IMG/VR virus record: IMGVR_UViG_3300046466_000088
Coordinates: 1-57,240 of that record
Reading direction: 5' to 3' (one strand)
From: a virus
Lineage: Duplodnaviria; Caudoviricetes
DNA: 57,240 nt
Every line of letters begins with the position of its first letter. Within the stretch, counting starts at the first letter, position 1. Made by a program: the position numbers and the translations under genes. Positions 4,350 to 56,713 of this stretch are shown piece by piece. The notes beneath the pieces were generated by a model. It was given only the letters and a program-made list of their open reading frames with translations. It ran no database searches and had not been told where the DNA came from.

Positions 4350-4370
4350 ATATATACCAACTCAAAATGT

Positions 4371-4405
4371 GGTGCAGTTCTGAGCTTTCACTCAAGGTCT
4401 GCACC
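4371..4405 (-). other. GC-rich RNA hairpin with GAAA tetraloop
   Basis: Minus strand GGTGCAG-acct-TGAGT-gaaa-GCTCA-gaa-CTGCACC. Confidence 0.45.
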
Positions 4406-4455
4406 TTACCCATACTACATAGCATACCACCTTTCGTAATGCAAGTTTTATTTAT

Positions 4456-11943: not shown

Positions 11944-12346
11944 ACTAGAAAATGCTATTAAGAATAATGAATGGATTGAAGATGCAGAAAAACCTGACCC
12001 AGAAGTTTTACCTAGTCTGCCTGGCTACCATGTATTGGTTCGCCCTGTTTCGGTAAAAGGTAAAACTAAAGGTGGTTTATTATTACCTGACTCAGTTAAA
12101 AGTGATGTAGCTTATTTAACTACAGTAGGTAAAGTTTTATCAATAGGTGATTTAGCTTATGAAGATAAAGATAAATTTCCAAATGGTAAATGGTGTGACG
12201 TAGGAGACTACGTTTGTTATGGAAGACATGTAGGTCAAAAACTATATTATAAAGGTATAAGATTATTATTATTATTTGATGACCAAGTAATGATGAAAGT
12301 TGATGACCCTACTAATTTAGATATGACTTATAATCTAGCTAATTAA
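11915..12346 (+). CDS. groES: GroES-like co-chaperonin
   Basis: GYHVLVRP...KTKGGLLLPD...GKVLSIG...VGDYV...LLFDDQV; exact start uncertain. Confidence 0.85.
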   Translation: MMEMKMRVPKLENAIKNNEWIEDAEKPDPEVLPSLPGYHVLVRPVSVKGKTKGGLLLPDSVKSDVAYLTTVGKVLSIGDLAYEDKDKFPNGKWCDVGDYVCYGRHVGQKLYYKGIRLLLLFDDQVMMKVDDPTNLDMTYNLAN

Positions 12347-34541: not shown

Positions 34542-36726
34542 TTTTTTAATAGAAAAAGTATTACCAATTAAATTTAAAGTTTGGTTACTGGACAGACTTG
34601 CGTGTGATATTGCCAATCAAGGTGAAGATGGTGATACTGAACTTGCACATATTAATTCCTATGAAGCTAAACTATTAAGGTCAGTTGGTGGTTCAGGCAC
34701 ATTAAATAGTAAGACAGGTCTAAAACAATATGGTGGTGGTGGTAGTAAATCTGCTCCAGCTCCTGCATCTACATCTACAGTTGTAGAAAAAGCAGAGTTT
34801 CCTCCTGAACTCAGACCATTTATTACTGACATACTTGAGAAAGCTCAAGCTCAAGAACAGGCAAGACTTGCAGTAGGTTATCCAGTATACCCTGGTCCAC
34901 GTATCGCCCAGTTTACTCCTGAAGAAAAAGCAGCTCAAGCAGGTATAGTTAGCTTGGTAGGTTCACAAGAACCAACATTTGATATAGCTAAAGGGTTAAC
35001 TGCTGCAGGTACAGGTGCAGCTACAGCAGAAACTATAGGGAAACGTATGTCTCCATATATGCAACAAGTTGTAGATATAGAAAAGAGAGAAGCTGAACGT
35101 GCTGCAGAAGGACGTAGACAACAACTAGCTGCTCAAGCTGTAGGTTCAAGAGGATTTGGTGGTTCAAGAGAGGCATTCATACAGTCTGAACTGGACAGAA
35201 ACTTACAACAACAATTAGGTGATATACAAGCTAGAGGACAACAAGCAGCTTTTCAACAGGCACAACAAGCATTTGAACAACAGAAACAAAGACAACTTGC
35301 TGGTGGGCAACAGATGGCAGGTATGGCTCCAATACAATCAGGTGTACAATTTAAAGAACTTGGTGCACTTGCAGGTATTGGTGAACAACAAAGACAACAA
35401 CAACAAAGAGCATTAGACTTAGGATTCCAACAGTTTAGAGAAGAACAAACATTCCCTGAAGCTAGTCTACAACAATATCAATCTATCATTCGTGGGTTCC
35501 CACTACAACCAACAACTACGCAAACTCAGCAATCAATACTACCTACACCTTCATTAGGACAACAACTAATAGGTATGGGCACTGGTGCATTAGGTCTCGC
35601 AGGTGCAGCTAAAACTTTATTTAAAGAAGGTGGAACACTCAAACAGATACCTGAGGGTAATGAAGGTTTAAAAGCATTAGCTAAAGAGTCTCCAAATACT
35701 GTTGAGAAAATGGGATTTAAACCAATGAAATCAGGTAAGAGACCAAAGATAACTAAAAAACAAAATAAGATGTACAAAGAAATGTTGTACGCAATGTTAT
35801 CAGATAATAAAAGAGAAGACATGAATGGTGACATAAGTGAGATAGCTGACATCATGAAAGAAAAAGGCATTGCTACATTGTCTCAAGATGGTGGTGTTGT
35901 TAAGTTACAACCTGGTGGGCAAATACCTACAGCTCCTAGTGTTCCAATATATGGAGATATTACAAGTTTTGAAATTGAAGATTTATTAAAAAGAGCCAAA
36001 GCTAGGTCTACAAGAGCAGACGAACTAGGTATGGTTATGTCTGATGAAGAAAGACAAAAACAAATTGAAGAAGATAAATCTGCAGCTAAACTTAGAGCCT
36101 ATATGCAACTTGCACAATTAGGTGGAGATGTACTCGCTGCTGACCCAAGTAGAGGTACATTAGCTGCAGTAGGTTCTGCTGCTTCTAAAGCTGCTCCAGG
36201 ATTTATGGAAGCTGCTAAAGAATTTAAAGATGTAGATAGAAAAGCTAGAAAAGAAAAATTAGATGAAACACTAAAACAAATTACTGTTGAAAGTACACTT
36301 GATAAAGATGTTCTTGATATTCTTAAAACTGATGCTGATTATAAAGCTGCTATTAAAAAAGCAGGTGATTTAGGTTTAAGTATTGTTGGAGATGTTAAAA
36401 GAGTTACTGATATAGTTAAAGGAAATTTATCAGGTACTGACCAACAAGTATTAGATGCTAATTCTGTATTAGAAACAACTCAAGGTAAAAAGACTTTAAC
36501 ACAGATAACTAAAATTGCTTCAGTAAATGCATTAAGAAAACTTCAAGAAATGAATAGAAAAGGTCAGTTAATAGGAACAGACAATGAAACAGAATTTAAT
36601 AATTTATTAATTGATGAAGTTAATATGTTAGGTGTAGGTGGTCTTGAAAATTTAAAAGAAGGTGGTTTAGTTCCTGCAACTAAAGAACAAAAAACTGTAT
36701 CACAAATATTAGACGAGATAGAATAG
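34516..36726 (+). CDS. Putative ejection (DNA transfer) protein
   Basis: MSPYMQQV, GFGGSR, Q-rich helices, GALGLAG. Confidence 0.65.
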   Translation: MSLLKHISNFLIEKVLPIKFKVWLLDRLACDIANQGEDGDTELAHINSYEAKLLRSVGGSGTLNSKTGLKQYGGGGSKSAPAPASTSTVVEKAEFPPELRPFITDILEKAQAQEQARLAVGYPVYPGPRIAQFTPEEKAAQAGIVSLVGSQEPTFDIAKGLTAAGTGAATAETIGKRMSPYMQQVVDIEKREAERAAEGRRQQLAAQAVGSRGFGGSREAFIQSELDRNLQQQLGDIQARGQQAAFQQAQQAFEQQKQRQLAGGQQMAGMAPIQSGVQFKELGALAGIGEQQRQQQQRALDLGFQQFREEQTFPEASLQQYQSIIRGFPLQPTTTQTQQSILPTPSLGQQLIGMGTGALGLAGAAKTLFKEGGTLKQIPEGNEGLKALAKESPNTVEKMGFKPMKSGKRPKITKKQNKMYKEMLYAMLSDNKREDMNGDISEIADIMKEKGIATLSQDGGVVKLQPGGQIPTAPSVPIYGDITSFEIEDLLKRAKARSTRADELGMVMSDEERQKQIEEDKSAAKLRAYMQLAQLGGDVLAADPSRGTLAAVGSAASKAAPGFMEAAKEFKDVDRKARKEKLDETLKQITVESTLDKDVLDILKTDADYKAAIKKAGDLGLSIVGDVKRVTDIVKGNLSGTDQQVLDANSVLETTQGKKTLTQITKIASVNALRKLQEMNRKGQLIGTDNETEFNNLLIDEVNMLGVGGLENLKEGGLVPATKEQKTVSQILDEIE

Positions 36727-36730
36727 TGCA

Positions 36731-39700
36731 ATGGCAATTAGTATTGACTCACAATCATTCAGAGAAACTGCAGAAAAAATTGAAGAACTGCAAAGTAAGG
36801 GAGCTTTAGATTCTGTTAAAGCTAAACAGCTTATTGAAGAACAAGGTTTTGACCCTATTGAATTTAAAGAAACTTATAATAAATACTCAGGTTTAACTCA
36901 AGAGGAAAAAGATAAAGCTGCAGAGATAACTGGTTTAGGTATTATTGATGCACCTATAAGAGTAGCAGGTAGAGCATTTGGTGAAGCTGGTAGAGATATT
37001 GCAAGTTTTTCTGCAGACGTAGCACCTAATTTAACTAAAAAGATTTCAGATAATTTTTCAGTAGTATCTGATGCAGTAGGTCAATATGTACCTGAAAGTG
37101 TAAAAGAATTTTCAGATGAGTTGTTTGACCCTTATCATGGTGATGGTGTATATGGAACTGCTGAAGGAGCTATAGGTAATATTGCCTCTTACTTTGTACC
37201 TGCAACAGGTATACTCAAAGCAACAAGAGGAGCACATACATTAGCTAAAGGTAATAGGTTTCTAAACTCAGGTCTAAAACAAGCATCAAATCTATTGGGT
37301 GCTAAAGGTCGTAAAGCTACAAAGGTAGCAGGTTTTTTAACAACTGGTGCAGCAGCAGCTACAATAGCTGAAGACCCTTCAGAAAATATAGTAAATACCT
37401 TACGAGAACAATTCCCTGAATCAACACAAATATTAGAAGGTCTTAGTGTCAACCCTGAAGATACAAGGTTGCAACAAAGACTTAATGCCTTTGTAAATAA
37501 TTTAGGTTTTGAAGTTGCAGCAGTAGGTGGTATAGCAGGTTTAATAAAAGGATATAATAAAGTTAAACCTTTAGGTAGAAAGTTTGAACAATTGTTTTCT
37601 TCTACAAGAGGTATGTCAGATAAAGCTCAAGAATTATTTTTAGGTTCAGATGCAGCAGTAAGTAATGCTTTTAAAGAAGCAACTGTTGATGCTAAAAAAT
37701 TATCTAAGGTAATGAAAAAGAATAACATGAAAGACCCTGCTCAAGTTCAACTTGTTAATGATGCACTTCAAGGTGATTCAGTTGCATTAAAAAATATACC
37801 TACTGATGTTAAAGAAGTTGTTACTGAAATGAGAAATAATATAGATGAGTTATCAAGATTTTTTATTAAGAATGAGAGATTGTCCAAACAACTTGCAACT
37901 ACAGTAGATAATAATTTAAATACATATATAACTAAAAGTTATCAAGCTTTTGAAGACCCTAAATATCTACAGGATATGTCAGATGCTATTAGAAGAAATA
38001 AAAAAAATATTTCAATGGGTAGACTTGACCAGATAACAGATGAAGGTCTAAAGAAAATGACAAACTATTTAGTAGATGATATTGGTTTAGAACCTAACCA
38101 AGCTTTTAATGCACTAAAGAATAGTGTTCAAAATTTAAGTCCTGAAGAAACTGGTAATTTTTTACTTGACCTCGCTAATAAAAATAAAGGTGGACAAGGT
38201 ACAACAGGAGCATTGAAAAAAAGACAGCTCATACCTGACCCTGTTAAAGCTTTTTTAGGTGAGATAAAAGACCCTACTTTTAATTATGTAAACTCTTATA
38301 AAAAATTAGCTGCCTATAAAGCTGAAGTAAATTTTTTAGAGGGATTAAAAAAGGACATGTTAAATAGTGGAGCTGCAGTTAATATAGCTAAAGCTAAAGG
38401 TCAAGACATAACTAATGTTCCTGATGCTTTTGTTAAAGCTGAAGACATAGTAGATGAAAGATTAAGTAAAGTATTTGGTGGTGGGGTAGTTAGAAAAGAT
38501 GCAGTTAAAAATCCATTAAGTGATTTATATATTGACCCTAGTTATGCTAAAACTTTAAGAGAGGGTATAGATGGAATGAATCCTGCAAGTAGTTCTTTTT
38601 TTAAATATGCTTGGATTCCATTAAAGACAGGTTCACAAATAGCTGTTACTGTATTTAATCCTATTACTCATGCAAGAAATGTTTTAGGTAACGTAGTATT
38701 TATGACAAGTAATGGTATGTCTCCTATTAATGGTGGTGCTTTTGATGCATCTAAATTTGTAGTAGATAAATTATTTGGATTAAATAATAAAGAACTTACA
38801 CAACAATTTAATAAATATAAATCTTTAGGCATAACTGGTACAGATATTGCATCTGAAACAATAAGAAAAAATTTAAAAGATATAACTTTAAATACACCTG
38901 AAGTTAAAAAAAATATTATAGATAATTTATATAAAAAACTTCCTCAGAATATAACTAAGTATACAACAAAACCTTTAGGTAAAGCTGCAAAAAAAGCAAT
39001 AGATAAAGTTATTGATGTGTACCAACTTGAAGATGATGTATTTAAAATAATGCACTTTGAAGGAAGTAAAAAATATTTAAAAGAAGCATTTCCTAATTTA
39101 GCAGATGATGCTCTTGAAAGTATGGCAGCTCAAAGAACAAGAGACTTAATGCCTAACTATAAAATAGCTCCTGCATTTATTAAAAGTTTAAGATATATGC
39201 CTATAGGTGACTTTGCTACATTTGCTGCTGAATCTGCAAGAGTGGCTAAAAATTTAGTTAAGTATACAGTTAAAGATGCATTGAGTGGTAATGCTACATT
39301 AAGTGCTGCAGCAGCTAAAAGATTAGCAGGTATGACTGCAGCAGGTGTAGGTGCAGATTATCTATCTGAACAATCTAAAATGTTTTTAGGTATATCAGAT
39401 AAAGAAGAAGAAGCATTAAAAACTATTGGACCAGATTGGGAATACTTTGCACCTCAAATATATTTAGATAAAAAGAAAGTTGGTGGAAAAAAAGTATATG
39501 ATACATTGTCAATGGCAAGTCTTGACCCTTTTGCTTTTCCTAAGACTGCAGCAAAGGCAACTCATAGAATGTTCTTTGACCCTAAAATAAGTGAACAACT
39601 TCTTTCAGGAGATATAGATAAAACATTACAACCTGAATTATTTAAAGTAGGTAATGCACTTTTTGATGGTTTACTAGGTCCTTTCATTGGAACATCATTA

Positions 39701-40489
39701 GCTACAGATGCTTTATTAGATGCAGCAGTTGGTCTAAAAGAAGATAAACCTTTTGGTGAAGTAGCAACTAAATTTATAGGAGATACACTGACACCTGCAG
39801 GTCTTGACTTTTATAGAAAAAGAAAGCAGTATGAATTAGAACTTGCAGCAAAAGATAAAGAACTAGCTGATAAAGGTTATCCATCTTACACTTTGTTTTC
39901 TGAAAGAACAAAAGGTATTCCAGGCGAAGCTGACTATGGTGCTTTGTTAGGTGTTAAAACAAGAAGAATAGATATTGATTCCAGTGTTCCTTATAACATG
40001 GGTTATAGACTTAAAAATATGAATAGAGGTAAAGCATTATCAAGAGTTATGAAAGGAGACTTACCTTTTAGTGTTGATATTAAAAAAAGAATAAGAGAAA
40101 AAACACCTATAGCTTTGAACCAAATTAATGATAATGATTTTGTTGAAGCTAAAAAAACAGATGAAAAAACTAAATTAAGATTAGAACAAGAATTAAGAAT
40201 GTATATTAATGCTTACAGAGATTTAGGTTATAGTGACAAAGATATAACTAAAGCAATGAGAAGATTAAAAATATCTAAAGAAGGTTTACAAACATTAGAT
40301 GCTATACAAAAAAATAAACACATACCTACTGATATAACTAAATCTGATTTAGAAAATTTTTATAGAGGATTAAAACAAAAAGGTGTATCTTTTCCTTTAG
40401 GTAAGATAAGAGAAATAAATAAAAAATTAGTGGGTCAAAAGATTGACGAAGAATTATTTAAAACAATAAGAAGAGTAGGAGAAAAATAA
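36731..40489 (+). CDS. Large internal virion/ejection protein
   Basis: 1252 aa; helical composition; last large gene of the virion module. Confidence 0.6.
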   Translation: MAISIDSQSFRETAEKIEELQSKGALDSVKAKQLIEEQGFDPIEFKETYNKYSGLTQEEKDKAAEITGLGIIDAPIRVAGRAFGEAGRDIASFSADVAPNLTKKISDNFSVVSDAVGQYVPESVKEFSDELFDPYHGDGVYGTAEGAIGNIASYFVPATGILKATRGAHTLAKGNRFLNSGLKQASNLLGAKGRKATKVAGFLTTGAAAATIAEDPSENIVNTLREQFPESTQILEGLSVNPEDTRLQQRLNAFVNNLGFEVAAVGGIAGLIKGYNKVKPLGRKFEQLFSSTRGMSDKAQELFLGSDAAVSNAFKEATVDAKKLSKVMKKNNMKDPAQVQLVNDALQGDSVALKNIPTDVKEVVTEMRNNIDELSRFFIKNERLSKQLATTVDNNLNTYITKSYQAFEDPKYLQDMSDAIRRNKKNISMGRLDQITDEGLKKMTNYLVDDIGLEPNQAFNALKNSVQNLSPEETGNFLLDLANKNKGGQGTTGALKKRQLIPDPVKAFLGEIKDPTFNYVNSYKKLAAYKAEVNFLEGLKKDMLNSGAAVNIAKAKGQDITNVPDAFVKAEDIVDERLSKVFGGGVVRKDAVKNPLSDLYIDPSYAKTLREGIDGMNPASSSFFKYAWIPLKTGSQIAVTVFNPITHARNVLGNVVFMTSNGMSPINGGAFDASKFVVDKLFGLNNKELTQQFNKYKSLGITGTDIASETIRKNLKDITLNTPEVKKNIIDNLYKKLPQNITKYTTKPLGKAAKKAIDKVIDVYQLEDDVFKIMHFEGSKKYLKEAFPNLADDALESMAAQRTRDLMPNYKIAPAFIKSLRYMPIGDFATFAAESARVAKNLVKYTVKDALSGNATLSAAAAKRLAGMTAAGVGADYLSEQSKMFLGISDKEEEALKTIGPDWEYFAPQIYLDKKKVGGKKVYDTLSMASLDPFAFPKTAAKATHRMFFDPKISEQLLSGDIDKTLQPELFKVGNALFDGLLGPFIGTSLATDALLDAAVGLKEDKPFGEVATKFIGDTLTPAGLDFYRKRKQYELELAAKDKELADKGYPSYTLFSERTKGIPGEADYGALLGVKTRRIDIDSSVPYNMGYRLKNMNRGKALSRVMKGDLPFSVDIKKRIREKTPIALNQINDNDFVEAKKTDEKTKLRLEQELRMYINAYRDLGYSDKDITKAMRRLKISKEGLQTLDAIQKNKHIPTDITKSDLENFYRGLKQKGVSFPLGKIREINKKLVGQKIDEELFKTIRRVGEK

Positions 40490-40722
40490 TGAACAGTAGA
40501 GATTCATTGGAAGCAAGACTAGCTGCACTTGAAGCACGTAATGAGGAACAACACAAAGAGGTTGCCAATAAACTAGAAGTTGCTTTTGAATTAATTAATA
40601 AACAGACAGAGATTATATCAGGACTCAGAGCAGATATTGCTAGAGGTTCAGGTGCTATTAAGATGTTGTTTATTGTAGGTGCTGCATTAGGTTTAATATA
40701 TACATGGATTAAGATGATATGA
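40489..40722 (+). CDS. Coiled-coil protein with C-terminal TM segment (holin-like)
   Basis: Heptad-like N-terminus; hydrophobic C-terminus. Confidence 0.5.
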   Translation: MNSRDSLEARLAALEARNEEQHKEVANKLEVAFELINKQTEIISGLRADIARGSGAIKMLFIVGAALGLIYTWIKMI

Positions 40723-41042
40723 GTTTAGTTAATTTAACTGACTCAGCTAAGAAACATTTAAAAAAATTAGCACAAGACAATAATAAAAAATATGTTCGTC
40801 TAGAAGTTAAGGGTGGTGGTTGTGCAGGTTTTAAATATGATTGGTCATTTGATGACTACATACAAGACAGTGATGACTTTATAGAGTTAGATGGCTTTAC
40901 ATTATTAATAGATAAATCTAGTTTATTTTATTTAATGGGAATGACTATTGAATATAAGAAAGAAATATTTGGTAGCTTCTTAGAACTAAAGAATCCTAAT
41001 GCAACAAGTAGTTGTGGATGTGGAGAAAGTTTTGGAGTATGA
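40719..41042 (+). CDS. iscA: A-type Fe-S cluster carrier (IscA/ErpA/HesB family)
   Basis: LTDSA...VKGGGCAGF.Y...NPNATSSCGCGESF. Confidence 0.95.
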   Translation: MSLVNLTDSAKKHLKKLAQDNNKKYVRLEVKGGGCAGFKYDWSFDDYIQDSDDFIELDGFTLLIDKSSLFYLMGMTIEYKKEIFGSFLELKNPNATSSCGCGESFGV

Positions 41043-41434
41043 CATATAGTAAAGAATTATTAGAACATTATGAGAACCCTAGAAATGTAGGGTCAATGGA
41101 TAAAGAAGATAAAGATGTAGGTACTGGACTTGTTGGAGCACCTGCCTGTGGTGACGTAATGAAGTTACAAATTAAAGTAGGTGATGAAGGTGTTATAAAA
41201 GATGCTAAGTTTAAAACATTTGGATGTGGTTCAGCTATTGCATCTAGTTCATTGATTACTGAATGGGTTAAGGGTAAGAAGATTGATGAAGCTAATAAGA
41301 TAAAGAACACAGAGATAGCTAATCATTTAGCTTTACCTCCAGTAAAAATACATTGTTCAGTTCTAGCTGAAGACGCAATCAAAGCTGCAATCTCAAACTA
41401 TAAAAAAAAGAATGAAAGTAAAAACTTATTGTAG
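41039..41434 (+). CDS. iscU: Fe-S cluster scaffold IscU
   Basis: YS...LEHYENPRNVG, APACGDVM, FKTFGCGSAIASSS, LPPVKIHCS; ATGA overlap with iscA gives start 41039. Confidence 0.95.
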   Translation: MTYSKELLEHYENPRNVGSMDKEDKDVGTGLVGAPACGDVMKLQIKVGDEGVIKDAKFKTFGCGSAIASSSLITEWVKGKKIDEANKIKNTEIANHLALPPVKIHCSVLAEDAIKAAISNYKKKNESKNLL

Positions 41435-41537
41435 AATAATTATATTTTTATTTATTGTGGAAATATTTATGCACATTGCTGAGATAGCATTTGATATAGA
41501 AGCACATTATAATTTAACAGGTATGTTATACAAGTAG
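41412..41537 (+). CDS. Small membrane peptide (41 aa)
   Basis: Read manually: MKVKTYCRIIIFLFIVEIFMHIAEIAFDIEAHYNLTGMLYK. Confidence 0.4.
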   Translation: MKVKTYCRIIIFLFIVEIFMHIAEIAFDIEAHYNLTGMLYK

Positions 41538-41556
41538 CCAACTGTGAAAATTGGAC

Positions 41557-41600
41557 AAAAAAATACCCCTAGTTATTAAGTTAGCTAGGGGTTTTTTATT
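41557..41600. terminator. Bidirectional terminator between the convergent arms
   Basis: A-run, CCCCTAG...CTAGGGG stem, T-run. Confidence 0.75.
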
Positions 41601-41794
41601 TATTTAATTTCTTTTTTTATTGAAGCGATATCTTCTTCTACTTGTTTTATTTCGTTAATATAATGGTCTCTCATTTCTTTAAGACTTTCTAATTTATTTT
41701 TATAGTTCTTCATTCTATATTCATTATAGACTTTATCAGATATGACCATTAAATTTGGTCTCATCATATTAAACATGTCATTTACTAATAACAT
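41600..41794 (-). CDS. Small coiled-coil hypothetical protein
   Basis: AGGAG RBS; ORF track. Confidence 0.65.
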   Translation of the reverse strand: MLLVNDMFNMMRPNLMVISDKVYNEYRMKNYKNKLESLKEMRDHYINEIKQVEEDIASIKKEIK

Positions 41795-41856
41795 AATATT
41801 TTCTCCTTTAGTTAATTATCCCTATATAGGCAATAATGTTGTTGTTAAACTAGGTT

Positions 41857-41887
41857 TAAGCCACACCTAATTAAAGCATATGGCTTA
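41857..41887 (-). terminator. Stem-loop 3' of pqqA
   Basis: Minus strand TAAGCCATAT...GTGTGGCTTA; 10-bp stem with two G-U pairs. Confidence 0.55.
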
Positions 41888-41908
41888 TACCAAAAAAGAT
41901 AATGCTAA

Positions 41909-41989
41909 TTACTTTTCAGCACAAGCATATGAATTGATTTCTAAACCCACAGAAATTTCTGCGATAATAGGTTTTGTCCATACAGTCAT
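41909..41989 (-). CDS. pqqA: Pyrroloquinoline quinone precursor peptide PqqA
   Basis: Read manually: MTVWTKPIIAEISVGLEINSYACAEK; W-x-K-P, G-x-E-x3-Y; AAGGAG RBS; starts 2 nt past the holin stop. Confidence 0.88.
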   Translation of the reverse strand: MTVWTKPIIAEISVGLEINSYACAEK

Positions 41990-41990
41990 A

Positions 41991-42362
41991 TTATTTCTCC
42001 TTCCATGTTTTAATTCCTTTCTCAGCACCTCTGCTTATGATATAGCCACCAATACCAATCTGTAATAAATCAAATAACTTCATGATAACTTGGTCAGATA
42101 AATTCTCTGGGTGTACACCAAACCAATACATAAACAAAAGCATCAAGAAAGATAGCATTGTTAAAGGTCTCCAATTACGTTGTAACCAACCTTCACCTTT
42201 AGCTTCAGCAACCACTACAGATGCAGCAGCTTTTTCTATATCTGCTGAGTGCGTAACTAGTGCTTTATTTAATTCTGATTGAGCCTTTGCTTGAGCAGCT
42301 TTATCAGGAATTATTCTATCAATTACTTTACCTAATATAGGTGCAATCATTGGTAATAACAT
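41991..42362 (-). CDS. Holin (GTA 3TM-holin-like)
   Basis: IDRIIPDK...AEAK...WLQRNWRP plus two TM segments. Confidence 0.75.
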   Translation of the reverse strand: MLLPMIAPILGKVIDRIIPDKAAQAKAQSELNKALVTHSADIEKAAASVVVAEAKGEGWLQRNWRPLTMLSFLMLLFMYWFGVHPENLSDQVIMKLFDLLQIGIGGYIISRGAEKGIKTWKEK

Positions 42363-42402
42363 AATATTTCTCCTATTTATATGTATTATAACTCAATTTT
42401 AT

Positions 42403-42978
42403 TTAAAAGAAAAGAGTTAAATTATTATTTTTGTTCATCCTACATTTACCTTCAAGGCAAACTAAGTCGTTGGTTTCATTAATCTTTTCATAAGTCTTAT
42501 GAAGAGGACTTGTATAAAAATAGAATGAACCTTCCTGCATAGGTATATAATATTTTTTAGTAGCAGGTCTATTGTAATAAAATAAACCTGAACTAGAATT
42601 ACCTACATGTATAGGTAACACAAAATAGCTATTAGCATTATGGTTTAGATTATAATACGTTCCATCCTCTTGTATAATTTCAAAAGCAGGTGATGAATAT
42701 GTATCATCAAATGATAATTCCTCTACATATAAATTATTTAACATCTGTTTTATTTTAAATAATAAAGATGGAAACTTTTCAAATACAATAGGATTGTTTG
42801 TAAGACATTTATTTTTATAAGTATCTTCAGTATCTGTATCTTCTTTTCCTGAACCTAATGATAATCTATTAGAATATTTTGACCAAGAATCTTTTAAATC
42901 CAATACTGATTTATAGATTGTTTTACAATCTGTATCTTCTATAAAATCTTTAATCGTTATTGAAGAGAGTATTTTCAT
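42403..42978 (-). CDS. Hypothetical protein, weakly 2OG-Fe(II) oxygenase-like
   Basis: TIKDFI N-terminus and GS.Y.Y...LH pattern; no clear HxD; start uncertain. Confidence 0.35.
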   Translation of the reverse strand: MKILSSITIKDFIEDTDCKTIYKSVLDLKDSWSKYSNRLSLGSGKEDTDTEDTYKNKCLTNNPIVFEKFPSLLFKIKQMLNNLYVEELSFDDTYSSPAFEIIQEDGTYYNLNHNANSYFVLPIHVGNSSSGLFYYNRPATKKYYIPMQEGSFYFYTSPLHKTYEKINETNDLVCLEGKCRMNKNNNLTLFF

Positions 42979-45226
42979 ATTTAGGATGTTCCTTTCTACC
43001 ACCAGTTTTCCACAACTCAGAAACAAGAGTACCCTCACCATATAGTTCCATATGCATGTCAACATCTTGTCTTTGAAATAATTTCTCACAGTCTTGTGCC
43101 ATAGCTAGTAGCTCACCTGTAGTCCAGAACTTTTTATTATTTGTAGTAACGTGTAAGTATTTACCTTTACCTGTTGAACTATCAACTGCATCTTTATCTT
43201 TAGGTTCATCCATTGAACAATCAAAACCATATAGTTTAAAGTTTCTAAATCCTAACGTATGTCCAACACTAATGGCTCTCATAGCTGCACAAGTACCACC
43301 AGTTAATAGAACTGTATCATCAGGTATACCTAAGTCTTTTGGTATAGTAACTTTATTATCTGTATTCTGTTCAACAATAGCATCTGAGTAAGCATTCCAA
43401 CCTATTATCTTAGCACTCTTATCTTTTAAGAAATCTACAACTGAGGTATCAGTCATAGATGATACAAAGAATATAGTCTCTTTAGGTATCTCTTTAAATA
43501 ATTCTTTACGAACAATACCATGTGTACTTGTACCTTCAATAGGTCTAGGGTCAAGTATGTTACATGCCCAAGGAACTATACCTTCTTTCAAAAGCATAGG
43601 TAGTGAATGTTTAACACACATGATTTTGTCTTTAGTTGATTTAAGATAGTCTCTATAATTTAAAAAGGAACTACCACCTGAAACTATATTAAGTATCTCT
43701 CCATGTGGTCTTGACTTAGTTAGCCATTTATTAATTGACTGCACATTATTTTTTATATTGTTTCTAATATAATCAGTAGGCATACAGTCTTTTGGTTTAA
43801 CAATTATTGGAACGTGATTGAAACTTTCAGGGAGTTTATCAAGACTAGATTTATGAAGAACGACAGCAAGATGAGTAACACCACCACCTGCCACTGGGTC
43901 ACTAGATGGAAGAACTTTCCTGCGTAGCTTTTTATCAAGGGCATCAAATACTTTATTAGTTCCTTTATGTTCATCAACAACTTCCTTTCCTTTTTCATCC
44001 TTAGTAAAGTAATCATCAAACACGACAACAGGTAAATCTTTTGTCATATTATAATCGTGTTGAACAGTATCAAAGCTATGTCCACCATCAAGATAAGCTA
44101 TATCAAAATTCTTTTGTTGCGTTAGTGTTACTTTAGTATCACCTTTAACTAATTTAAATTCAAAGTCTTTGTTCATTTTTTCTTTAACAAAAGTTTTAAA
44201 TTCTTTTAGTCTATTACTAACTGCTTTATAAAGATTGTGTGGTTTAGTATTCATTTCAGTTGCATCAGTAAATTCATCTGCATCTTCAAATAAATCATAA
44301 CCTTCATAGTAAACTTTATCTACGTTGTCAAAAGCTGCCAGTGCCATTTCAATAGCACGACCACCATTCCATGTACCTGTCTCCAGTATTCTTGAAAACT
44401 TGTAATGTCTGATGACATCTGCCAATTGTTTGTACCTCTTTGGACCAACGACATCAGGTGTGGTCTTATCAGATAACAAGTCCTTCCTATTACCCTTGAA
44501 GTGTTCAAAGTAATCTGCCAAAGGTGAATTATTAAACGCATCTAAACCTCTCACGTCTGGTGTTAAACTATGTTTTTTTAAACCATGTGCACCATAGATA
44601 TTAAATAATCTTTCAAAGATAAATCCATCATGCCATTCTCTATATGAAAGAACTTCATGACTATTATAAAGACCTCTCATATCTCCCAGTAAATCAAGGG
44701 GTGGGATAGTGTTAAGATTAAAAGCCATGAAAGATGTTTCACTATAGTCCACATCCTTCCTACCTAAGTGGACGAGTTCAGAACCTAGGGGAATGATTCC
44801 AAACAAGTCTTGTTTATTAACAGGCTTTCTAAGGATAATGTCAGCATCTAACCAAACTACCCACCCTACTTGTACACTCTTTTCTACCAACTTGAAGGAG
44901 AAGTCAGTCAGAGCATACACTTTGTGACACCATTTAATGGCATCTAATCTCCAGTTATAAGGCATCTTACCAGCTTCAGTACCATCATGAAGTTTCATTT
45001 CTTCACGATAGGTAATCATTTCATCTACCTTATTAAGATTTCTAAATGTTATCTTGTCTGTTTTAGGAAACTCTTTTACCTGCTCATCAGTAAAGTCATG
45101 ATAGTAGGCAGTTAAATGTAAATCGTCAGCCATATATTTTATAACTGAGTCAATCATTTTCTTTGCATAAGTTTCCCATCCTTTAGGATTAAAGGACGTA
45201 ACGATATTTATTGTGTCTTTACTCAT
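42950..45226 (-). CDS. Fusion of GT-A glycosyltransferase, SAM methyltransferase and Maf/DUF115-like domains
   Basis: VWLDAD; ILETGTWNG...YLDGGHS...VFDD; IVSGGSS...GGT...GFRNFKLYGFDCS. Confidence 0.75.
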   Translation of the reverse strand: MSKDTINIVTSFNPKGWETYAKKMIDSVIKYMADDLHLTAYYHDFTDEQVKEFPKTDKITFRNLNKVDEMITYREEMKLHDGTEAGKMPYNWRLDAIKWCHKVYALTDFSFKLVEKSVQVGWVVWLDADIILRKPVNKQDLFGIIPLGSELVHLGRKDVDYSETSFMAFNLNTIPPLDLLGDMRGLYNSHEVLSYREWHDGFIFERLFNIYGAHGLKKHSLTPDVRGLDAFNNSPLADYFEHFKGNRKDLLSDKTTPDVVGPKRYKQLADVIRHYKFSRILETGTWNGGRAIEMALAAFDNVDKVYYEGYDLFEDADEFTDATEMNTKPHNLYKAVSNRLKEFKTFVKEKMNKDFEFKLVKGDTKVTLTQQKNFDIAYLDGGHSFDTVQHDYNMTKDLPVVVFDDYFTKDEKGKEVVDEHKGTNKVFDALDKKLRRKVLPSSDPVAGGGVTHLAVVLHKSSLDKLPESFNHVPIIVKPKDCMPTDYIRNNIKNNVQSINKWLTKSRPHGEILNIVSGGSSFLNYRDYLKSTKDKIMCVKHSLPMLLKEGIVPWACNILDPRPIEGTSTHGIVRKELFKEIPKETIFFVSSMTDTSVVDFLKDKSAKIIGWNAYSDAIVEQNTDNKVTIPKDLGIPDDTVLLTGGTCAAMRAISVGHTLGFRNFKLYGFDCSMDEPKDKDAVDSSTGKGKYLHVTTNNKKFWTTGELLAMAQDCEKLFQRQDVDMHMELYGEGTLVSELWKTGGRKEHPKYENTLFNND

Positions 45227-45227
45227 A

Positions 45228-46061
45228 TTAATAAGTTACCATCTTTGTAGGTCTTGTTTCACTTATAGTGTTTCTATATAATAGTTTTTCATCTTCCCAG
45301 TCTTGGGCAAATTGCATGTTCTCAAACTTACCACCAAACCAAGGACCACCAAGAGAAAAATGTATAGCATTAGGACTTTCATTTAATTTTGAAACTTCAG
45401 GAATATGATTCCAACTAGCAGGTATTTCTCCTATCTGGTCATCACTTGTCCACTTAAACTGATGTAGGTCTAAACCTTTCATATTATTTACTTTATCACT
45501 TGTCAAATTTTTTACATCTTTATGTTTCATATTAAACAACATAAGTGAAGACCATAACTTCTTATCATAACCAAGTTGTTTTTGATTATCCATCTTAGTA
45601 TCTTCAGTAGGTTGCCAATCAAACTTAACACAAGCAACAGCTTTATCAGAATGATTTTCCTCTACAAACTTAAATAGTTTATCTATATCTCTAAGAAATA
45701 AAAAATCACAGTCACAAAACATCACCCAATTTTTCATCTTATTTATTTTAGCTAGGTGGGGACATAGAAATCTTGTGTGACTAAACTCTGTTGAAAAAGG
45801 TTTGTCATCTAGCACATCATATTTTTGTCCTTCGTTATCTTCTCTCCACTCTCTAGTAAAATGACCACTACTTCTTAAATGATTAACATTTAAATCAATA
45901 ATTGTTAAAGGTCTTGAGCTATGTCTAGCTAATGAATTTTCACAAACTCTATAAGCTATATCTTCACGAGAGTCATACCCTATAAAAACAAAATTAGTTT
46001 TCTCTTTAGGTAAAGGATGAATTGTTTTTTCTTCGTGTGTTGTTCTTGCATTTATATACAT
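45228..46061 (-). CDS. GT-A fold glycosyltransferase
   Basis: VFIGYDSRE, STEFSHTRF, FCDCDFL (DxD), WSSLMLFN, HFSLGGPW. Confidence 0.8.
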   Translation of the reverse strand: MYINARTTHEEKTIHPLPKEKTNFVFIGYDSREDIAYRVCENSLARHSSRPLTIIDLNVNHLRSSGHFTREWREDNEGQKYDVLDDKPFSTEFSHTRFLCPHLAKINKMKNWVMFCDCDFLFLRDIDKLFKFVEENHSDKAVACVKFDWQPTEDTKMDNQKQLGYDKKLWSSLMLFNMKHKDVKNLTSDKVNNMKGLDLHQFKWTSDDQIGEIPASWNHIPEVSKLNESPNAIHFSLGGPWFGGKFENMQFAQDWEDEKLLYRNTISETRPTKMVTY

Positions 46062-46067
46062 TATATA

Positions 46068-46096
46068 ATTGTACTCCTTTTAATTATTAAAGTCAA
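46068..46096 (-). promoter_or_regulatory. Sigma70-type promoter for the glycan/holin/pqqA block
   Basis: TTGACT-17 bp-TACAAT. Confidence 0.5.
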
Positions 46097-46103
46097 ATAC
46101 TTT

Positions 46104-48017
46104 TTAAATTATCTCACATGCACCTGCAGTACATGCAAGTTCTTTTGATGAGGTGGTTGTATCTTCTTTCTCATAGTTAGTTAAGTCCATCCAATTAATA
46201 TTCTTAGGAGTTTTAGCTAACCATTCTTTATAAGTATTCTCATTAACTTCTTGATAAGGTGCTTGTTTATATGAATGTTCAGAGTGTGGTAAGAATGAAA
46301 CACCACTCATCACGTCAAAGTTTTCATAAACCCATGCACCAACTTGTAACCACTCTTCTTCCTTTACATAAACTGTAATTGAAGGTTTGTGTTCGCACCA
46401 ATATAGTTGATAAGTTTTCCATATTTCTAGTTGTTCAATAGCAGACTTAGCATCTCTCATAATTGAACTCGTTGGAGACTTCATAGGAAAATAAATAACT
46501 TTAGTATCATTTGGTTTCATTACGTCATCTTCAGCATGAAATCCTTTATCTATCATCATGTCACATAAAGGGTCTTTCTTATCTGCTCTTACAGTTCTAA
46601 GATAGTAAGGTGAATAACGTGGGTGAATACCTGAAGCTGAATCAACTAATTGTGATACAGTTCCTGAAGGTTTCACACAAGTAATAGCAGTGGATTGATT
46701 AACTCCTAGCATTTCTGCCCACTTCTTATTTGTTTTAATTGAATGTTCTTTTAAATTAACTAACATATTTTTTAAAACTTGTTGATTAAATATATCACCT
46801 GCTAAAATTTTGTGGTCCATGATACCAGTTAATGAAACACCTAGTAATCTTTCTTCTTCAGTATTATCTTTCCATTGTTTAGTTAAATATCTAAAGTCTG
46901 ATAAAGTTGATTGAAGTGTACCAAAGATTGTAGCTATCTCTACCTTTTCTTTTAAAGTTTCTTCAGTGTCATCAGGTCTTACAACTACTTCAGATAGATT
47001 ACAGAATTGTTTATTTCGTAGAACTATTTCTGAACATGGATTAGTTCCAAAATCAAAGTCACCCTCTCTTCTACCTGAACGTGTTGCCATCTTTTGTGAT
47101 GCAACTCTATTAAAGATACCACGTTCACCTGACTTAGAATCATAAAGAGATACCCACTCCTTCATAAATGTACCTATGTCAGGCTTCTCAGTATAAGCTA
47201 CAGAGTTATTAGCATAACTTCTTTGTGGATTATTGTCCCACCATTGACCAGTCTTTGCATCTCTCATTCTAATGTCTGAAAGATTAGAAAGACTAATTAA
47301 AGCTGAACGTCTTACACCACCACAAACAACTACATCTGCAATCTTACATACAATATCGTGACATTCAATACTATTTAATTTTCTACCTTTAGCTTTTTGA
47401 AATGTTTCAATACTAAATTTAAATAAATCTCTTAATGGGTCAGGACCACTAGCACGTCCACCAAATGTTTTTAGTTTAGCACCTGCAGGTCTAACAAGGG
47501 ACACATCAAATTGTGGTATCTGTCCTGCATAAAGCATAGCAATAAGTTCTCTATAAGATTTTGCCCAACCTATTTTACTATCTCTAACTTTAATTACTGT
47601 TTCAGTAGTATGAAACTTCTCTGCAATATCAGGAAGTTTGTCAACGTATTGTCTCTCAACACTAAACCCTACACCAGTACCACACATAAGTATATACATT
47701 ATTTCATCAAAGGTTCTTACATTATCAATAGCAACATATGAACAGTTAAATCCTGCTACATTATCTTTATCTAAAGCAGGACCTGCAGTCATCAAGGCTC
47801 TCATTGAAGGCATAACTTTTAATGTAGTGATAGCATCAATCCATCTATCTCTTTCTTTTTTATCTAATTTTTTATTTGTTAGTTTCTCATAACGTCCTTG
47901 CATATAACTAACATATCGTTCAACAGTTTCACTCCATGTTTCTCTTCTGTTTTCTTTTTCAATCCATCTCGCATAACGAGAGATAGCAATATAGTTTTGG
48001 TATTCAGTTGGTAACAT
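46104..48017 (-). CDS. nrdJ: Class II (adenosylcobalamin-dependent) ribonucleotide reductase
   Basis: PSMR, FNCSY, GGVRRSA, TNPCSE, TCVKPSGT, C-terminal CTAGAC; no beta-subunit gene seen. Confidence 0.9.
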   Translation of the reverse strand: MLPTEYQNYIAISRYARWIEKENRRETWSETVERYVSYMQGRYEKLTNKKLDKKERDRWIDAITTLKVMPSMRALMTAGPALDKDNVAGFNCSYVAIDNVRTFDEIMYILMCGTGVGFSVERQYVDKLPDIAEKFHTTETVIKVRDSKIGWAKSYRELIAMLYAGQIPQFDVSLVRPAGAKLKTFGGRASGPDPLRDLFKFSIETFQKAKGRKLNSIECHDIVCKIADVVVCGGVRRSALISLSNLSDIRMRDAKTGQWWDNNPQRSYANNSVAYTEKPDIGTFMKEWVSLYDSKSGERGIFNRVASQKMATRSGRREGDFDFGTNPCSEIVLRNKQFCNLSEVVVRPDDTEETLKEKVEIATIFGTLQSTLSDFRYLTKQWKDNTEEERLLGVSLTGIMDHKILAGDIFNQQVLKNMLVNLKEHSIKTNKKWAEMLGVNQSTAITCVKPSGTVSQLVDSASGIHPRYSPYYLRTVRADKKDPLCDMMIDKGFHAEDDVMKPNDTKVIYFPMKSPTSSIMRDAKSAIEQLEIWKTYQLYWCEHKPSITVYVKEEEWLQVGAWVYENFDVMSGVSFLPHSEHSYKQAPYQEVNENTYKEWLAKTPKNINWMDLTNYEKEDTTTSSKELACTAGACEII

Positions 48018-56383: not shown

Positions 56384-56713
56384 CTATCTTCCTCTCCAAT
56401 CTCTTTTGTCACCTCTTGGTGTTGTTATTTTTTTCTCACAAGCATAGCCACTATGTGTAGTGATAACCATTTTTTCTTTGTCAGTACAAGTATAGTAGCA
56501 TTTAACAGAGTCTTCACCAAAGAATGGTTCAACTATTTTTTCCTTTGTTAATCTGCAAGTCACAAAGTATTGGTTTCTTTGGTCATAAAGTTTACCTTTA
56601 CCAGTCCATTTATAACTCCAACTTTTAGCTTCAGCAGTTAGAACTAAATAAATTATGGTTGTAAGCACCACATAACCTATGAGTAATTCGTAATCAGGTT
56701 TCTTCATCATCAT
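56384..56713 (-). CDS. Membrane-anchored or exported Cys-containing protein
   Basis: N-terminal TM/signal segment; four Cys. Confidence 0.55.
   Translation of the reverse strand: MMMKKPDYELLIGYVVLTTIIYLVLTAEAKSWSYKWTGKGKLYDQRNQYFVTCRLTKEKIVEPFFGEDSVKCYYTCTDKEKMVITTHSGYACEKKITTPRGDKRDWRGR

What the first reader, a model, noticed from the sequence alone, without database searches (positions are those of the whole stretch)
41909..41989. Hidden phage-encoded PqqA (PQQ precursor peptide)
Seen: a 26-codon ORF missed by the ORF track, MTVWTKPIIAEISVGLEINSYACAEK, with an AAGGAG RBS, starting directly after the holin stop. Established: PqqA peptides are about 23-30 aa with an N-terminal W-x-x-P and a conserved E-x3-Y. 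The radical-SAM enzyme PqqE, helped by PqqD, cross-links that Glu and Tyr, and one peptide is consumed per PQQ. I recognise no pqqB-E in this genome. Inference: the phage supplies only the stoichiometric substrate to host enzymes, boosting PQQ-dependent dehydrogenases during infection. Alternatively it could be a decoy that occupies PqqD/PqqE. The VGLEINSYACAE form looks alphaproteobacterial to me, which hints at the host.
Basis: partly seen in the sequence, partly recalled or inferred. Interest (0 to 1): 0.93.

Follow-up and report, generated by a model that had tools for sequence, protein, structure and literature searches.

The report
Phage-borne PQQ precursor peptide gene
A marine phage carries a tiny, well-conserved gene for the peptide that bacteria turn into the cofactor PQQ, probably to keep its methanol-oxidising host supplied with that cofactor during infection; phage copies of this gene have been reported before, but not in this marine setting.

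Summary
ORF 41909-41989 (-) encodes MTVWTKPIIAEISVGLEINSYACAEK, with AAGGAG 7 nt before the ATG, which lies 1 nt after the holin stop. It passes both curated PqqA models (PF08042 32.3 bits, cut-off 21.1; TIGR02107 38.6, cut-off 20). The window is a whole virus record estimated 99% complete, with no pqqB, C, D or E.

Of 25 close relatives found through the holin, 23 keep the ORF, 1 is cut by a contig end, and 1 near-complete genome lacks it. Codons 11-26 show only synonymous change (pS 0.22, pN 0).

The 16-residue core is identical to the PqqA of one order of small, AT-rich marine Alphaproteobacteria. A 2025 paper names four of these genomes as TMED127/Methylaequorales, methylotrophs whose PQQ-dependent xoxF5 dominates their transcripts. 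The five host genomes tested have a pqqC-pqqE cluster, a PQQ alcohol dehydrogenase and 3-4 pqqA copies.

At least 119 IMG/VR contigs carry the same core, including T4-like myovirus fragments; none has pqqB-E.

Best reading: a host-derived auxiliary gene that supplies the consumed substrate. Expression and processing are unproven. A viral PqqA was reported from Lake Baikal in 2020, so this is a new member of a known kind.

The parts
41909..41989 (-). pqqA: 26-codon gene for the PQQ precursor peptide (W4, P7; cross-link residues E17 and Y21)
   Evidence: Translation. PF08042 32.3 bits against cut-off 21.1. TIGR02107 38.6 bits against cut-off 20. Six-frame search of the record E 4.2e-10. Core under purifying selection.
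41997..42002 (-). Shine-Dalgarno AAGGAG, 7 nt before the pqqA ATG, inside the last codons of the holin gene
   Evidence: Read directly.
41991..42362 (-). Holin gene immediately upstream; its stop lies 1 nt before the pqqA start, so the two are probably co-transcribed and translationally coupled
   Evidence: PF11351 2.6e-10 and phrog_3427 2.9e-25. No promoter-like site of more than 9 of 12 between the two genes.
41795..41908 (-). 114-nt spacer between pqqA and ORF64; no significant fold
   Evidence: Fold of 41780-41920 (-) gives z -1.69; 11 of 200 shuffles fold as well.
41600..41794 (-). ORF64, a variable 64-aa coiled-coil-like ORF of unknown role; not part of the pqqA module
   Evidence: Only a sub-threshold XhlA match, 17.5 bits against cut-off 34.7. 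Present in 16 and absent in 7 of the 23 relatives that keep pqqA.
41565..41592 (.). Hairpin terminator with an A-run on one side and a T-run on the other, shared by the converging minus-strand (holin-pqqA-ORF64) and plus-strand (IscA-IscU) units
   Evidence: 11-pair stem, 1 found against 0.3 expected. The same hairpin follows pqqA directly in 7 relatives and follows the holin directly in L017.
41039..41434 (+). IscU-type Fe-S scaffold gene converging on pqqA; a neighbour and possible functional partner (inference only)
   Evidence: PF01592 8.7e-54 and phrog_8429. pqqA also lies within 1.5 kb of IscU or IscA homologues in 10 other viral loci that lack the holin.
40719..41042 (+). IscA-type Fe-S carrier gene; a neighbour
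   Evidence: PF01521 2.3e-19.

Best explanation
The ORF is a genuine pqqA captured from the host lineage and kept by selection as an auxiliary metabolic gene.

Proposed steps:
1. It is transcribed at the end of the minus-strand unit and translated from its own AAGGAG site, probably coupled to the holin stop (inferred from anatomy).
2. The 26-residue peptide is bound by the host's PqqD. The host's radical-SAM enzyme PqqE cross-links it between E17 and Y21. The host's PqqB and PqqC and a protease finish it into PQQ (inferred from established PQQ biochemistry, recalled, not tested here).
The phage copy therefore adds to, or replaces, the host's own 1-5 pqqA genes, which may fall silent during infection.
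4. The PQQ-dependent periplasmic dehydrogenases stay loaded and the infected cell keeps gaining energy. In the likely host these are a lanthanide-type methanol/alcohol dehydrogenase and a glucose dehydrogenase.

The likely host is the marine methylotroph order TMED127/Methylaequorales.

Shown: identity, conservation, absence of pqqB-E in the phage, and presence of the pathway in the candidate host. Inferred: expression, processing, host and benefit.
For: Identity. Both curated PqqA models are passed.

Selection, on the set found through the holin and so not biased by pqqA:
- 23 of 25 close relatives have the complete ORF, 1 is cut by a contig end, and 1 lacks it.
- In 24 copies (13 distinct alleles), codons 11-26 carry at least 7 synonymous changes at 5 codons and no replacement (pS 0.221, pN 0).
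- With 10.3 of 48 core sites synonymous, 7 of 7 synonymous has a rough chance of 2e-5.
- W4 and P7 are fixed although the rest of the leader varies.

Only the substrate is carried. No pqqB-E is found in the window or in 0 of 119 other viral loci with this core.

A plausible recipient pathway exists:
- The exact 16-residue core occurs in 96 stretches of the species-genome collection, nearly all labelled uncultured Alphaproteobacteria or 'Rickettsiales'.
- Five of these genomes fall in one GTDB order of 42 species, of which 39 have pqqA, mostly 2-5 copies.
- 5 of 5 tested have pqqE (572-575 bits), pqqC (333-346 bits) and a PQQ methanol/ethanol-family dehydrogenase a few kb away (4 of 5 over cut-off).
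- PMC12542740 (passages read) names MED657, MED715, AG-892-F10 and CM1_5m.P40, all in my list, as TMED127/Methylaequorales. It describes ~1.5 Mb obligate methylotrophs in which xoxF5 makes up 16-57% of transcripts, with a PQQ module in a methylotrophy island.

High PqqA demand is usual in methylotrophs. Methylophilaceae have 3-12 pqqA copies with single copies of the other pqq genes (PMC4109929, passages). A Hyphomicrobium strain has 5 (PMC9851590, passages).

Repeated capture by different phages:
- At least 119 IMG/VR contigs carry the core.
- By neighbours within 1.5 kb: 20 holin-adjacent; about 44 beside portal, Cpn10-like or ORF56384 homologues; 10 beside IscU or IscA; 4 beside RNR; 39 none of the listed window genes; 2 with no ORF found by my regex.
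- Counted separately on the same 119: 34 share a T4-like exonuclease-pqqA-gp59 loader synteny, and 6 carry a more distant T4-like set.

GC content is 33.7% for the phage and about 30% for the host loci.

Precedent. A Lake Baikal methylotroph phage population encodes PqqA next to a methanol dehydrogenase (PMC7678222, passages).
Against: No direct evidence of translation or processing. Contigs from three RNA libraries cover the gene, but contigs show neither strand nor level and such libraries can hold DNA. I could not lay a silent control stretch because the cap was one call.

The gene is dispensable. A 98%-complete sibling genome with a 95%-identical holin has no PqqA anywhere.

The leader, which is the part expected to meet PqqD, evolves fast (pN/pS about 1.3 over codons 2-10). 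It differs from the commonest host form by one extra residue and 2-5 replacements. That fits a decoy, or a tuned competitor, as well as a substrate.

Its place after the holin, at the very end of an operon, may mean late expression. That would leave little time for new PQQ to matter.

The host is inferred, not shown:
- The nearest cultured phages (DNA polymerase about 50% identical) infect Pelagibacter and lack pqqA.
- The phage IscU is 81-88% identical to the candidate order's, but an outsider reaches 86%, so it does not discriminate.
- Only 1 of 42 genomes of the order holds a related phage contig, which may be a binning error.

The large viral and bacterial sets were found with a pattern that demands the core. 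They say nothing about selection.
Confidence: 0.7

Rival explanations
1. Decoy or competitor. The phage peptide occupies the host's PqqD/PqqE without yielding PQQ, or out-competes host PqqA. This would shut down or redirect PQQ-dependent periplasmic oxidation during infection.
For: The leader is the fast-evolving part (pN/pS about 1.3). It differs from the host consensus by an extra residue and several replacements. The phage carries no enzyme of the pathway.
Against: All 16 core residues are identical to the host's, and only synonymous change is seen in them. These include E17 and Y21 and the C-terminal residues that matter only for later processing. A mere binder would not need them. Methylotrophs themselves multiply pqqA to raise supply. 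Harming the host's main energy source during a lytic cycle has no obvious gain.
Confidence: 0.08
2. Neutral passenger. A recently captured scrap of host DNA with no function in the phage.
For: It is dispensable: one sibling genome lacks it. It lies in a variable spot where ORF64 also comes and goes.
Against: 23 of 25 relatives keep it intact, with its ribosome-binding site, across holin divergence down to 89% identity. Only synonymous changes occur in the core. The phage and host cores differ at 4-11 of 51 bases, so the capture is not recent. Several unrelated phage types carry it in different places.
Confidence: 0.04
3. Role at the DNA or RNA level. The conserved 48-base core, present in 1-5 copies per host genome, would serve as a homology patch for recombination with the host chromosome, as an attachment site, or as a regulatory RNA mimic.
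For: The host has several dispersed copies. The antisense frame 41880-42065 is open and 'matches' host loci.
Against: Third-codon positions vary freely while the peptide is fixed. That is the signature of selection on the protein, not on the bases. No phage genes lie beside the host copies examined. The neighbours of 5 host copies are housekeeping genes. I made no dedicated integrase search; none of the window ORFs scanned gave an integrase match. The antisense matches are a by-product of pqqA conservation.
Confidence: 0.03
4. A peptide with another job, for example a lysis-timing or signalling peptide co-opted from PqqA, given its position in the lysis cassette right after the holin.
For: It is translationally coupled to the holin. 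A small XhlA-like ORF follows it, but only sub-threshold.
Against: In other phage groups the same peptide sits in non-lysis settings: beside the portal and Cpn10-like genes, RNR, IscU, or the T4-like exonuclease and gp59 loader. The holin neighbourhood is therefore incidental. Complete identity of the core with the host's PqqA argues for the canonical fate.
Confidence: 0.05

Closest known systems
Cellular PqqA of the marine alphaproteobacterial order named TMED127/Methylaequorales in PMC12542740 (commonest form is a 25-aa peptide, stored protein P0017)
   Same: Residues 11-26 are identical (EISVGLEINSYACAEK), and W-x-x-P is kept. Both pass PF08042 and TIGR02107. Both also occur as orphan copies away from pqqB-E.
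   Different: The phage form has one extra N-terminal residue and 2-5 leader replacements. Its bases differ at 4-11 of 51 core positions. It sits in a virus that has none of the processing genes.
Viral PqqA of Lake Baikal viral population VP_266 (Coutinho et al. 2020, PMC7678222; passages read)
   Same: A phage-borne PqqA interpreted as an auxiliary gene that supports PQQ-dependent methanol oxidation in a methylotrophic host.
   Different: That case is freshwater, with predicted Methylophilaceae-type hosts, and the phage also encodes a methanol dehydrogenase. Here the setting is marine, the core is alphaproteobacterial, and pqqA stands alone. No match to the host's PqqB/C/D/E or to the four pqq models was found in the window; I did not search it for a methanol dehydrogenase. 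I did not have the Baikal sequence and made no sequence comparison.
Multi-copy pqqA of methylotrophs (Methylophilaceae 3-12 copies, PMC4109929; Hyphomicrobium 5 copies, PMC9851590; passages read)
   Same: Extra precursor genes with single copies of the enzymes, which is the same logic of raising supply of a consumed substrate. The candidate host order shows it too, with 1-5 copies.
   Different: Here the extra copy is carried by a virus.
Cyanophage psbA (recalled from general knowledge, no call)
   Different: psbA encodes a full protein subunit, not a peptide turned into a cofactor. There is no sequence relationship.
HTVC103P-type pelagiphages (HTVC103P, 104P, 115P; bioRxiv 10.1101/2019.12.14.876532, passages read)
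   Same: The nearest cultured phages: about 54-kb podoviruses with DNA polymerase 50-51% identical over the whole protein.
   Different: They were isolated on Pelagibacter HTCC7211, and none of the three has a PqqA match at E<=1.

Membership tests
PqqA (Pfam PF08042; NCBIfam TIGR02107, equivalog) | Score above the curated cut-off of the family models | tested here: met
   PF08042 32.3 bits against 21.1, E 9.8e-8. TIGR02107 38.6 bits against 20, E 6.7e-10, covering 21 of 21 model positions. Six-frame search of the record gives E 4.2e-10, and 0 of 14 control genomes ring.
PqqA (Pfam PF08042; NCBIfam TIGR02107, equivalog) | A small stand-alone peptide of about 20-40 residues with the Glu and Tyr that become PQQ spaced E-x-x-x-Y | tested here: met
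   26 residues with E17-I-N-S-Y21. Both residues are invariant in 24 of 24 phage copies. That these two residues are the cross-linked ones is recalled knowledge.
PqqA (Pfam PF08042; NCBIfam TIGR02107, equivalog) | N-terminal W-x-x-P recognition region | tested here: met
   W4 and P7 are invariant in 24 of 24 copies while neighbouring leader residues vary. The role of this motif in PqqD binding is recalled, not tested.
PqqA (Pfam PF08042; NCBIfam TIGR02107, equivalog) | Genomic company of pqqB, C, D and E | tested here: not met
   None is in the phage genome. This is not disqualifying. Orphan copies are normal in the candidate host and in other methylotrophs. The enzymes are present in the candidate host.
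PqqA (Pfam PF08042; NCBIfam TIGR02107, equivalog) | Binding by PqqD, cross-linking by PqqE and conversion to PQQ | not testable with these tools
   This needs biochemistry or complementation. Complex prediction was not used because it asks for chains of 30 residues or more and the peptide has 26.
Phage auxiliary metabolic gene | Lies inside a bona fide viral genome, flanked by viral genes, not on a host fragment or a chimeric contig | tested here: met
   The record is 99% complete with terminase, portal, capsid, tail fibre, DNA polymerase and holin. The same junction, holin stop then pqqA, is seen in 23 independent contigs.
Phage auxiliary metabolic gene | Close cellular homologue in the host lineage, with the rest of the pathway host-encoded | tested here: inconclusive
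   The homologue and the pathway are shown in one bacterial order. That this order is the host rests on the gene itself and on GC content. The independent lines are weak.
Phage auxiliary metabolic gene | Expressed during infection | tested here: inconclusive
   Contigs from 3 RNA libraries of 3 studies cover it, 2 of them bridging the holin end, pqqA and ORF64 with 0 mismatches. Contigs cannot show strand or transcription, and no control stretch could be laid.

The most novel reading that the evidence does not exclude
pqqA is a repeatedly captured, host-diagnostic auxiliary gene. It marks the first recognisable phages of TMED127/Methylaequorales, the methylotrophs whose lanthanide-dependent xoxF5 is among the most transcribed genes in oligotrophic surface seawater. 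These phages include two or more podovirus-like groups and two T4-like myovirus groups. Its spread into unrelated phages, always without pqqB-E, would mean that precursor-peptide supply is the bottleneck for PQQ, and so for methanol-derived energy, in infected cells. Its repeated position beside phage IscU/IscA would mean that the phages also feed Fe-S clusters to the radical-SAM enzyme PqqE.
Probability: 0.4. Interest if true: 0.75.

Novelty: new member of a known kind. Interest (0 to 1): 0.58.

Why it matters
It would be a phage gene encoding a precursor peptide for a cofactor, not an enzyme.

It also gives a simple sequence handle, the 16-residue core, that ties at least 119 uncultured marine viral contigs of several morphotypes to one bacterial order. 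The 2025 paper on TMED127/Methylaequorales does not mention phages or pqqA. That order is reported there as the main transcriber of lanthanide-dependent methanol dehydrogenase in oligotrophic surface water. Viral control of its cofactor supply would therefore bear on marine methanol and lanthanide cycling.

The claim is directly testable with a synthetic 26-residue peptide and recombinant PqqD and PqqE.

Tried and rejected
GenBank phages. tblastn of the 26-aa peptide (E<=10) and megablast of 36000-48000 found nothing. For so short a query this is weak. The three nearest cultured phages were checked properly with the HMM and lack the gene.

Naming the host order through proteins. The host PqqC search returned only unnamed or 'Rickettsiales'/'Alphaproteobacteria bacterium' labels. 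My first guess, HIMB59/AEGEAN-169, had no support: 0 papers for AEGEAN-169 plus PQQ and an irrelevant hit for HIMB59. I dropped it when PMC12542740 named the same isolates as TMED127.

IscU as a host marker. It is 81-88% identical in 35 of 42 genomes of the order, but 86% in an outsider among 301 class genomes. It does not discriminate.

Phage contigs inside genomes of the order. The portal query hit 1 of 42 genomes (G033 contig C15, an 18.8-kb structural module, portal 42-45% and capsid 54% identical, no pqqA on it). The terminase query hit 0 of 42. Binning error cannot be excluded. Three 'bacterial' contigs labelled Maricaulis, Flavobacteriaceae and Yeosuana carry phage genes.

RNA evidence. 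See the Against line. The common contig end at 41624 in two runs lies next to a low-complexity stretch that the tool skipped (41590-41623), so I read nothing into it.

Hairpin after pqqA. The fold is not significant. Promoter scan: 7 sites against 8.7 expected, none convincing. No tRNA is present.

The search of protein representatives added nothing beyond further PqqA-like peptides.

Papers found by my searches but irrelevant on reading the matched passages: PMC11118758, PMC9004378, PMC12801897 and PMC12397222.

Literature negative. No paper in the held library joins PQQ with pelagiphage or pelagimyophage as a phage gene, or describes marine phage pqqA.

Structure prediction, fold search and complex prediction were not used because the peptide is too short to be informative or admissible.
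Full report
THE OBSERVATION. On the minus strand, 41909-41989 is a 26-codon ORF reading MTVWTKPIIAEISVGLEINSYACAEK. Its ATG lies one base after the TAA of the 123-codon gene at 41991-42362. AAGGAG lies 7 nt upstream of the ATG, inside the end of that gene. The upstream gene is a holin (PF11351 at 2.6e-10; phrog_3427 at 2.9e-25). The peptide passes both curated PqqA models: PF08042 at 32.3 bits against a cut-off of 21.1, and TIGR02107 at 38.6 bits against 20. A six-frame scan of the whole record finds exactly this place at E 4.2e-10, while 0 of 14 control genomes ring.

THE GENOME. The window is an entire IMG/VR virus record of 57,240 bases, estimated 99% complete.
- The plus-strand block holds small and large terminase, portal, a Cpn10-like gene, capsid, tail fibres, ejection proteins, and then IscA and IscU.
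- The minus-strand block holds a T7-like primase-helicase, DNA polymerase, class II ribonucleotide reductase, a glycosyltransferase, an MptE-like/methyltransferase protein, the holin, pqqA and a 64-codon ORF.
- The two blocks converge on one hairpin terminator at 41565-41592.
- There is no tRNA.
- The nearest cultured phages are the 54-kb Pelagibacter podoviruses HTVC115P, 104P and 103P, with DNA polymerase 50-51% identical (described in bioRxiv 10.1101/2019.12.14.876532, passages read).
- pqqE, pqqD, pqqC and pqqB models find nothing in the record. Neither does tblastn with a host's own proteins.

CONSERVATION IN RELATIVES, WITHOUT CIRCULARITY. I collected relatives through the holin, not through pqqA (31 loci). 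Twenty-five of them (L002-L026) have a holin 89-100% identical.
- 23 have the full ORF in the same place, 1 is cut by the contig end inside the ORF, and 1 (L017) goes from the holin stop straight to the terminator.
- L017's record is 56.7 kb, 98% complete, and has no PqqA anywhere.
- L031 is cut by its contig end within the holin. The five distant holin loci (42-52% identical) have no pqqA.
- Across the 24 complete copies (13 alleles), codons 11-26 show synonymous variation at 5 codons (at least 7 changes) and no replacement: pS 0.221, pN 0. The rough chance of 7 of 7 being synonymous is 2e-5.
- In codons 2-10, pN/pS is about 1.3, yet W4 and P7 never change. The holin gives 0.117.
- Downstream, 16 relatives have an ORF64-like gene before the terminator, and 7 have the terminator 17-27 nt after pqqA. 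pqqA is therefore a module of its own.

WHERE THE GENE CAME FROM AND WHO THE HOST MAY BE.
- The closest cellular peptides share residues 11-26 exactly. They come from MAGs and SAGs labelled 'Rickettsiales bacterium' or 'Alphaproteobacteria bacterium'.
- An exact-pattern scan of one genome per species found 96 stretches (80 listed). Nearly all are from such genomes. Five odd-labelled contigs remain, of which three carry phage genes.
- The commonest form, 63 of 102 copies, is a 25-mer that differs from the phage peptide in the leader only.
- Five of the genomes fall in one GTDB order of 42 species. Genomes there are 0.8-2.0 Mb, and 39 of 42 have pqqA, mostly 2-5 copies. The loci have about 30% GC against 33.7% for the phage.
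- All five have one pqqC and one full-score pqqE next to one pqqA copy, and a PQQ methanol/ethanol-family dehydrogenase about 2.5 kb further on. The dehydrogenase scores 666-671 bits in four; the fifth match is partial at 469 bits.
- Five of the other copies, the ones I examined, sit between housekeeping genes.
- The tools give no taxon for these handles. However, PMC12542740 (passages read) names MED657, MED715, AG-892-F10 and CM1_5m.P40, all in my list, as the order TMED127/Methylaequorales.
- That paper describes ~1.5 Mb likely obligate methylotrophs, with xoxF5 at 16-57% of transcripts, a co-regulated PQQ glucose dehydrogenase, and a PQQ module in a 45-kb methylotrophy island. It does not mention pqqA or phages.

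THE GENE IS WIDESPREAD IN MARINE PHAGES. None has a pqqB-E homologue (0 of 119). By neighbours within 1.5 kb:
- 20 have the holin (the window's clade).
- About 44 lie beside homologues of the window's portal, Cpn10-like gene or ORF 56384-56713, at 30-75% identity (a related but distinct group).
- 10 lie beside IscU or IscA without the holin.
- 4 lie beside the reductase.
- 39 have none of the listed window genes nearby.
- In 2 my regex found no ORF.

One locus of the 39, L159, is a T4-like myovirus fragment with endolysin, exonuclease, gp59-type helicase loader, gp32-type SSB, tail tube and baseplate cap. Across all 119 loci, 34 (L159 included) share its exonuclease-pqqA-loader synteny at 61% identity or more. 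Six more carry a more distant T4-like set at 36-44%. These sets were selected for the core, so they show distribution, not selection.

HOW IT MOST LIKELY WORKS. Established PQQ biochemistry (recalled) says that PqqD presents PqqA to the radical-SAM enzyme PqqE, which links the Glu and the Tyr. PqqB, PqqC and a protease complete PQQ, and one peptide is consumed per cofactor. Methylotrophs answer the demand with many pqqA copies: 3-12 in Methylophilaceae (PMC4109929) and 5 in a Hyphomicrobium (PMC9851590). The candidate host does the same. A phage copy with an untouched core, its own ribosome-binding site and no enzymes is best read as one more precursor gene. It would keep PQQ, and so methanol- and glucose-dehydrogenase activity, available while host gene expression fails. 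I put this at about 0.7. That the ORF is a real, selected pqqA I put above 0.9. The neighbouring IscU and IscA could serve PqqE's iron-sulphur clusters, but this is speculation. pqqA lies near IscU in two different phage groups, which may only reflect a shared hot spot for auxiliary genes.

WHAT SPEAKS AGAINST, AND THE RIVALS.
- Nothing shows translation or processing.
- Contigs from three RNA libraries of three studies cover the gene. Two of them run from ORF64 through pqqA into the holin with no mismatch. Contigs give no strand and no level, DNA may be present, and I could not lay a control.
- The gene is dispensable (L017).
- The leader evolves fast, which also suits a decoy or competitor (0.08).
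- Against the decoy stands the perfect conservation of residues that matter only for catalysis and later processing.
- A neutral passenger (0.04) is contradicted by the selection pattern and by 4-11 base differences out of 51 from host copies.
- A DNA-level role (0.03) is contradicted by free third positions.
- A lysis-related peptide (0.05) is contradicted by the non-lysis contexts in other phages.
- The host assignment rests mainly on the gene itself. IscU does not discriminate. The single related phage contig inside a genome of the order (G033 C15) could be a binning error.

COMPARISON WITH WHAT IS KNOWN, AND NOVELTY.
- A phage-borne PqqA was published for a Lake Baikal methylotroph virus that also encodes methanol dehydrogenase (PMC7678222).
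- A 2026 reservoir-sediment study lists viral pqqA, pqqD and pqqE (PMC13188868).
- JGI's pipeline already labels a relative's copy.
- The kind is therefore known. What is new here is the setting. This is a marine, alphaproteobacterial-type, stand-alone pqqA shared by podovirus-like and T4-like phages. It probably points to the so far phage-less TMED127/Methylaequorales.
- My searches of the held library found no paper describing this.

VERDICT. This is a new member of a known kind, of moderate to good interest.

Noticed in passing
window 40719-41434 (+): IscA- and IscU-type Fe-S assembly genes end the structural block and converge on pqqA. The IscU is 81-88% identical to that of the candidate host order but also 86% to an unrelated alphaproteobacterium. 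In 10 other viral loci pqqA lies within 1.5 kb of IscU or IscA homologues.
   Followed up: partly
window 41600-41794 (-): ORF64 is a coiled-coil-like 64-aa ORF with only a sub-threshold XhlA match. It is present in 16 and absent in 7 close relatives that keep pqqA, and about 40% identical where present. It is a fast-changing accessory gene at the operon end.
   Followed up: partly
L017 (IMG/VR contig of 56.7 kb), locus positions about 4370-4440: A natural pqqA-less sibling phage: the holin stop is followed directly by the shared terminator. It would be a useful comparison genome for any fitness or abundance study.
   Followed up: yes
L095 1574-1621 (+) and 2395-2442 (-); also L036, L043, L090, L112: Genomes of the candidate host order carry 1-5 pqqA copies, some as pairs within about 1-3 kb, in both orientations. 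The neighbours of five orphan copies examined are housekeeping genes (SSF transporter, BipA, CobS, molybdopterin oxidoreductase, MFS transporter).
   Followed up: partly
L159 (IMG/VR, 14.6 kb held) pqqA at about 2623: A T4-like myovirus fragment with pqqA between an exonuclease and a gp59-type helicase loader. 34 of the 119 viral loci share this synteny, and 6 more distant T4-like loci have pqqA beside IscU.
   Followed up: partly
L034, L059, L098 (genome-collection contigs labelled Maricaulis sp., Flavobacteriaceae bacterium, Yeosuana sp.): These short 'bacterial' contigs carry homologues of the window's phage genes (portal 39%, the reductase region, the holin region 89%) beside pqqA. They are probably phage contigs binned into MAGs.
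   Followed up: partly
L257 (G033 contig C15, 18.8 kb): One genome of the candidate host order holds a contig that is a phage structural module syntenic with the window (portal 42-45%, capsid 54%, Cpn10-like 37%). It has no pqqA on the part held. It could be an infecting phage or a binning error.
   Followed up: partly
window 41880-42065 (+): A 61-aa antisense ORF overlaps pqqA and 'matches' nearly every host pqqA locus by tblastn. This is a by-product of base conservation in pqqA, not a gene.
   Followed up: yes
window 11915-12346 (+): A Cpn10 (GroES)-like gene (PF00166, 7.8e-8) sits in the structural block just after the portal. In a related phage group pqqA sits beside this gene's homologue.
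   Followed up: no
window 42403-46061 (-): Between the reductase and the holin lie three genes: a family-8 glycosyltransferase-like gene just below its Pfam cut-off, a 758-aa protein with MptE-like and methyltransferase domains, and a 228-aa ORF without matches. They may form a sugar or surface-modification module. No endolysin was identified near the holin.
   Followed up: no
L247 (IMG/VR) pqqA at about 3019: One viral copy has Cys instead of Ser at core position 13 (EICVG...). It is the only core replacement seen, allowed by my degenerate pattern by accident.
   Followed up: no
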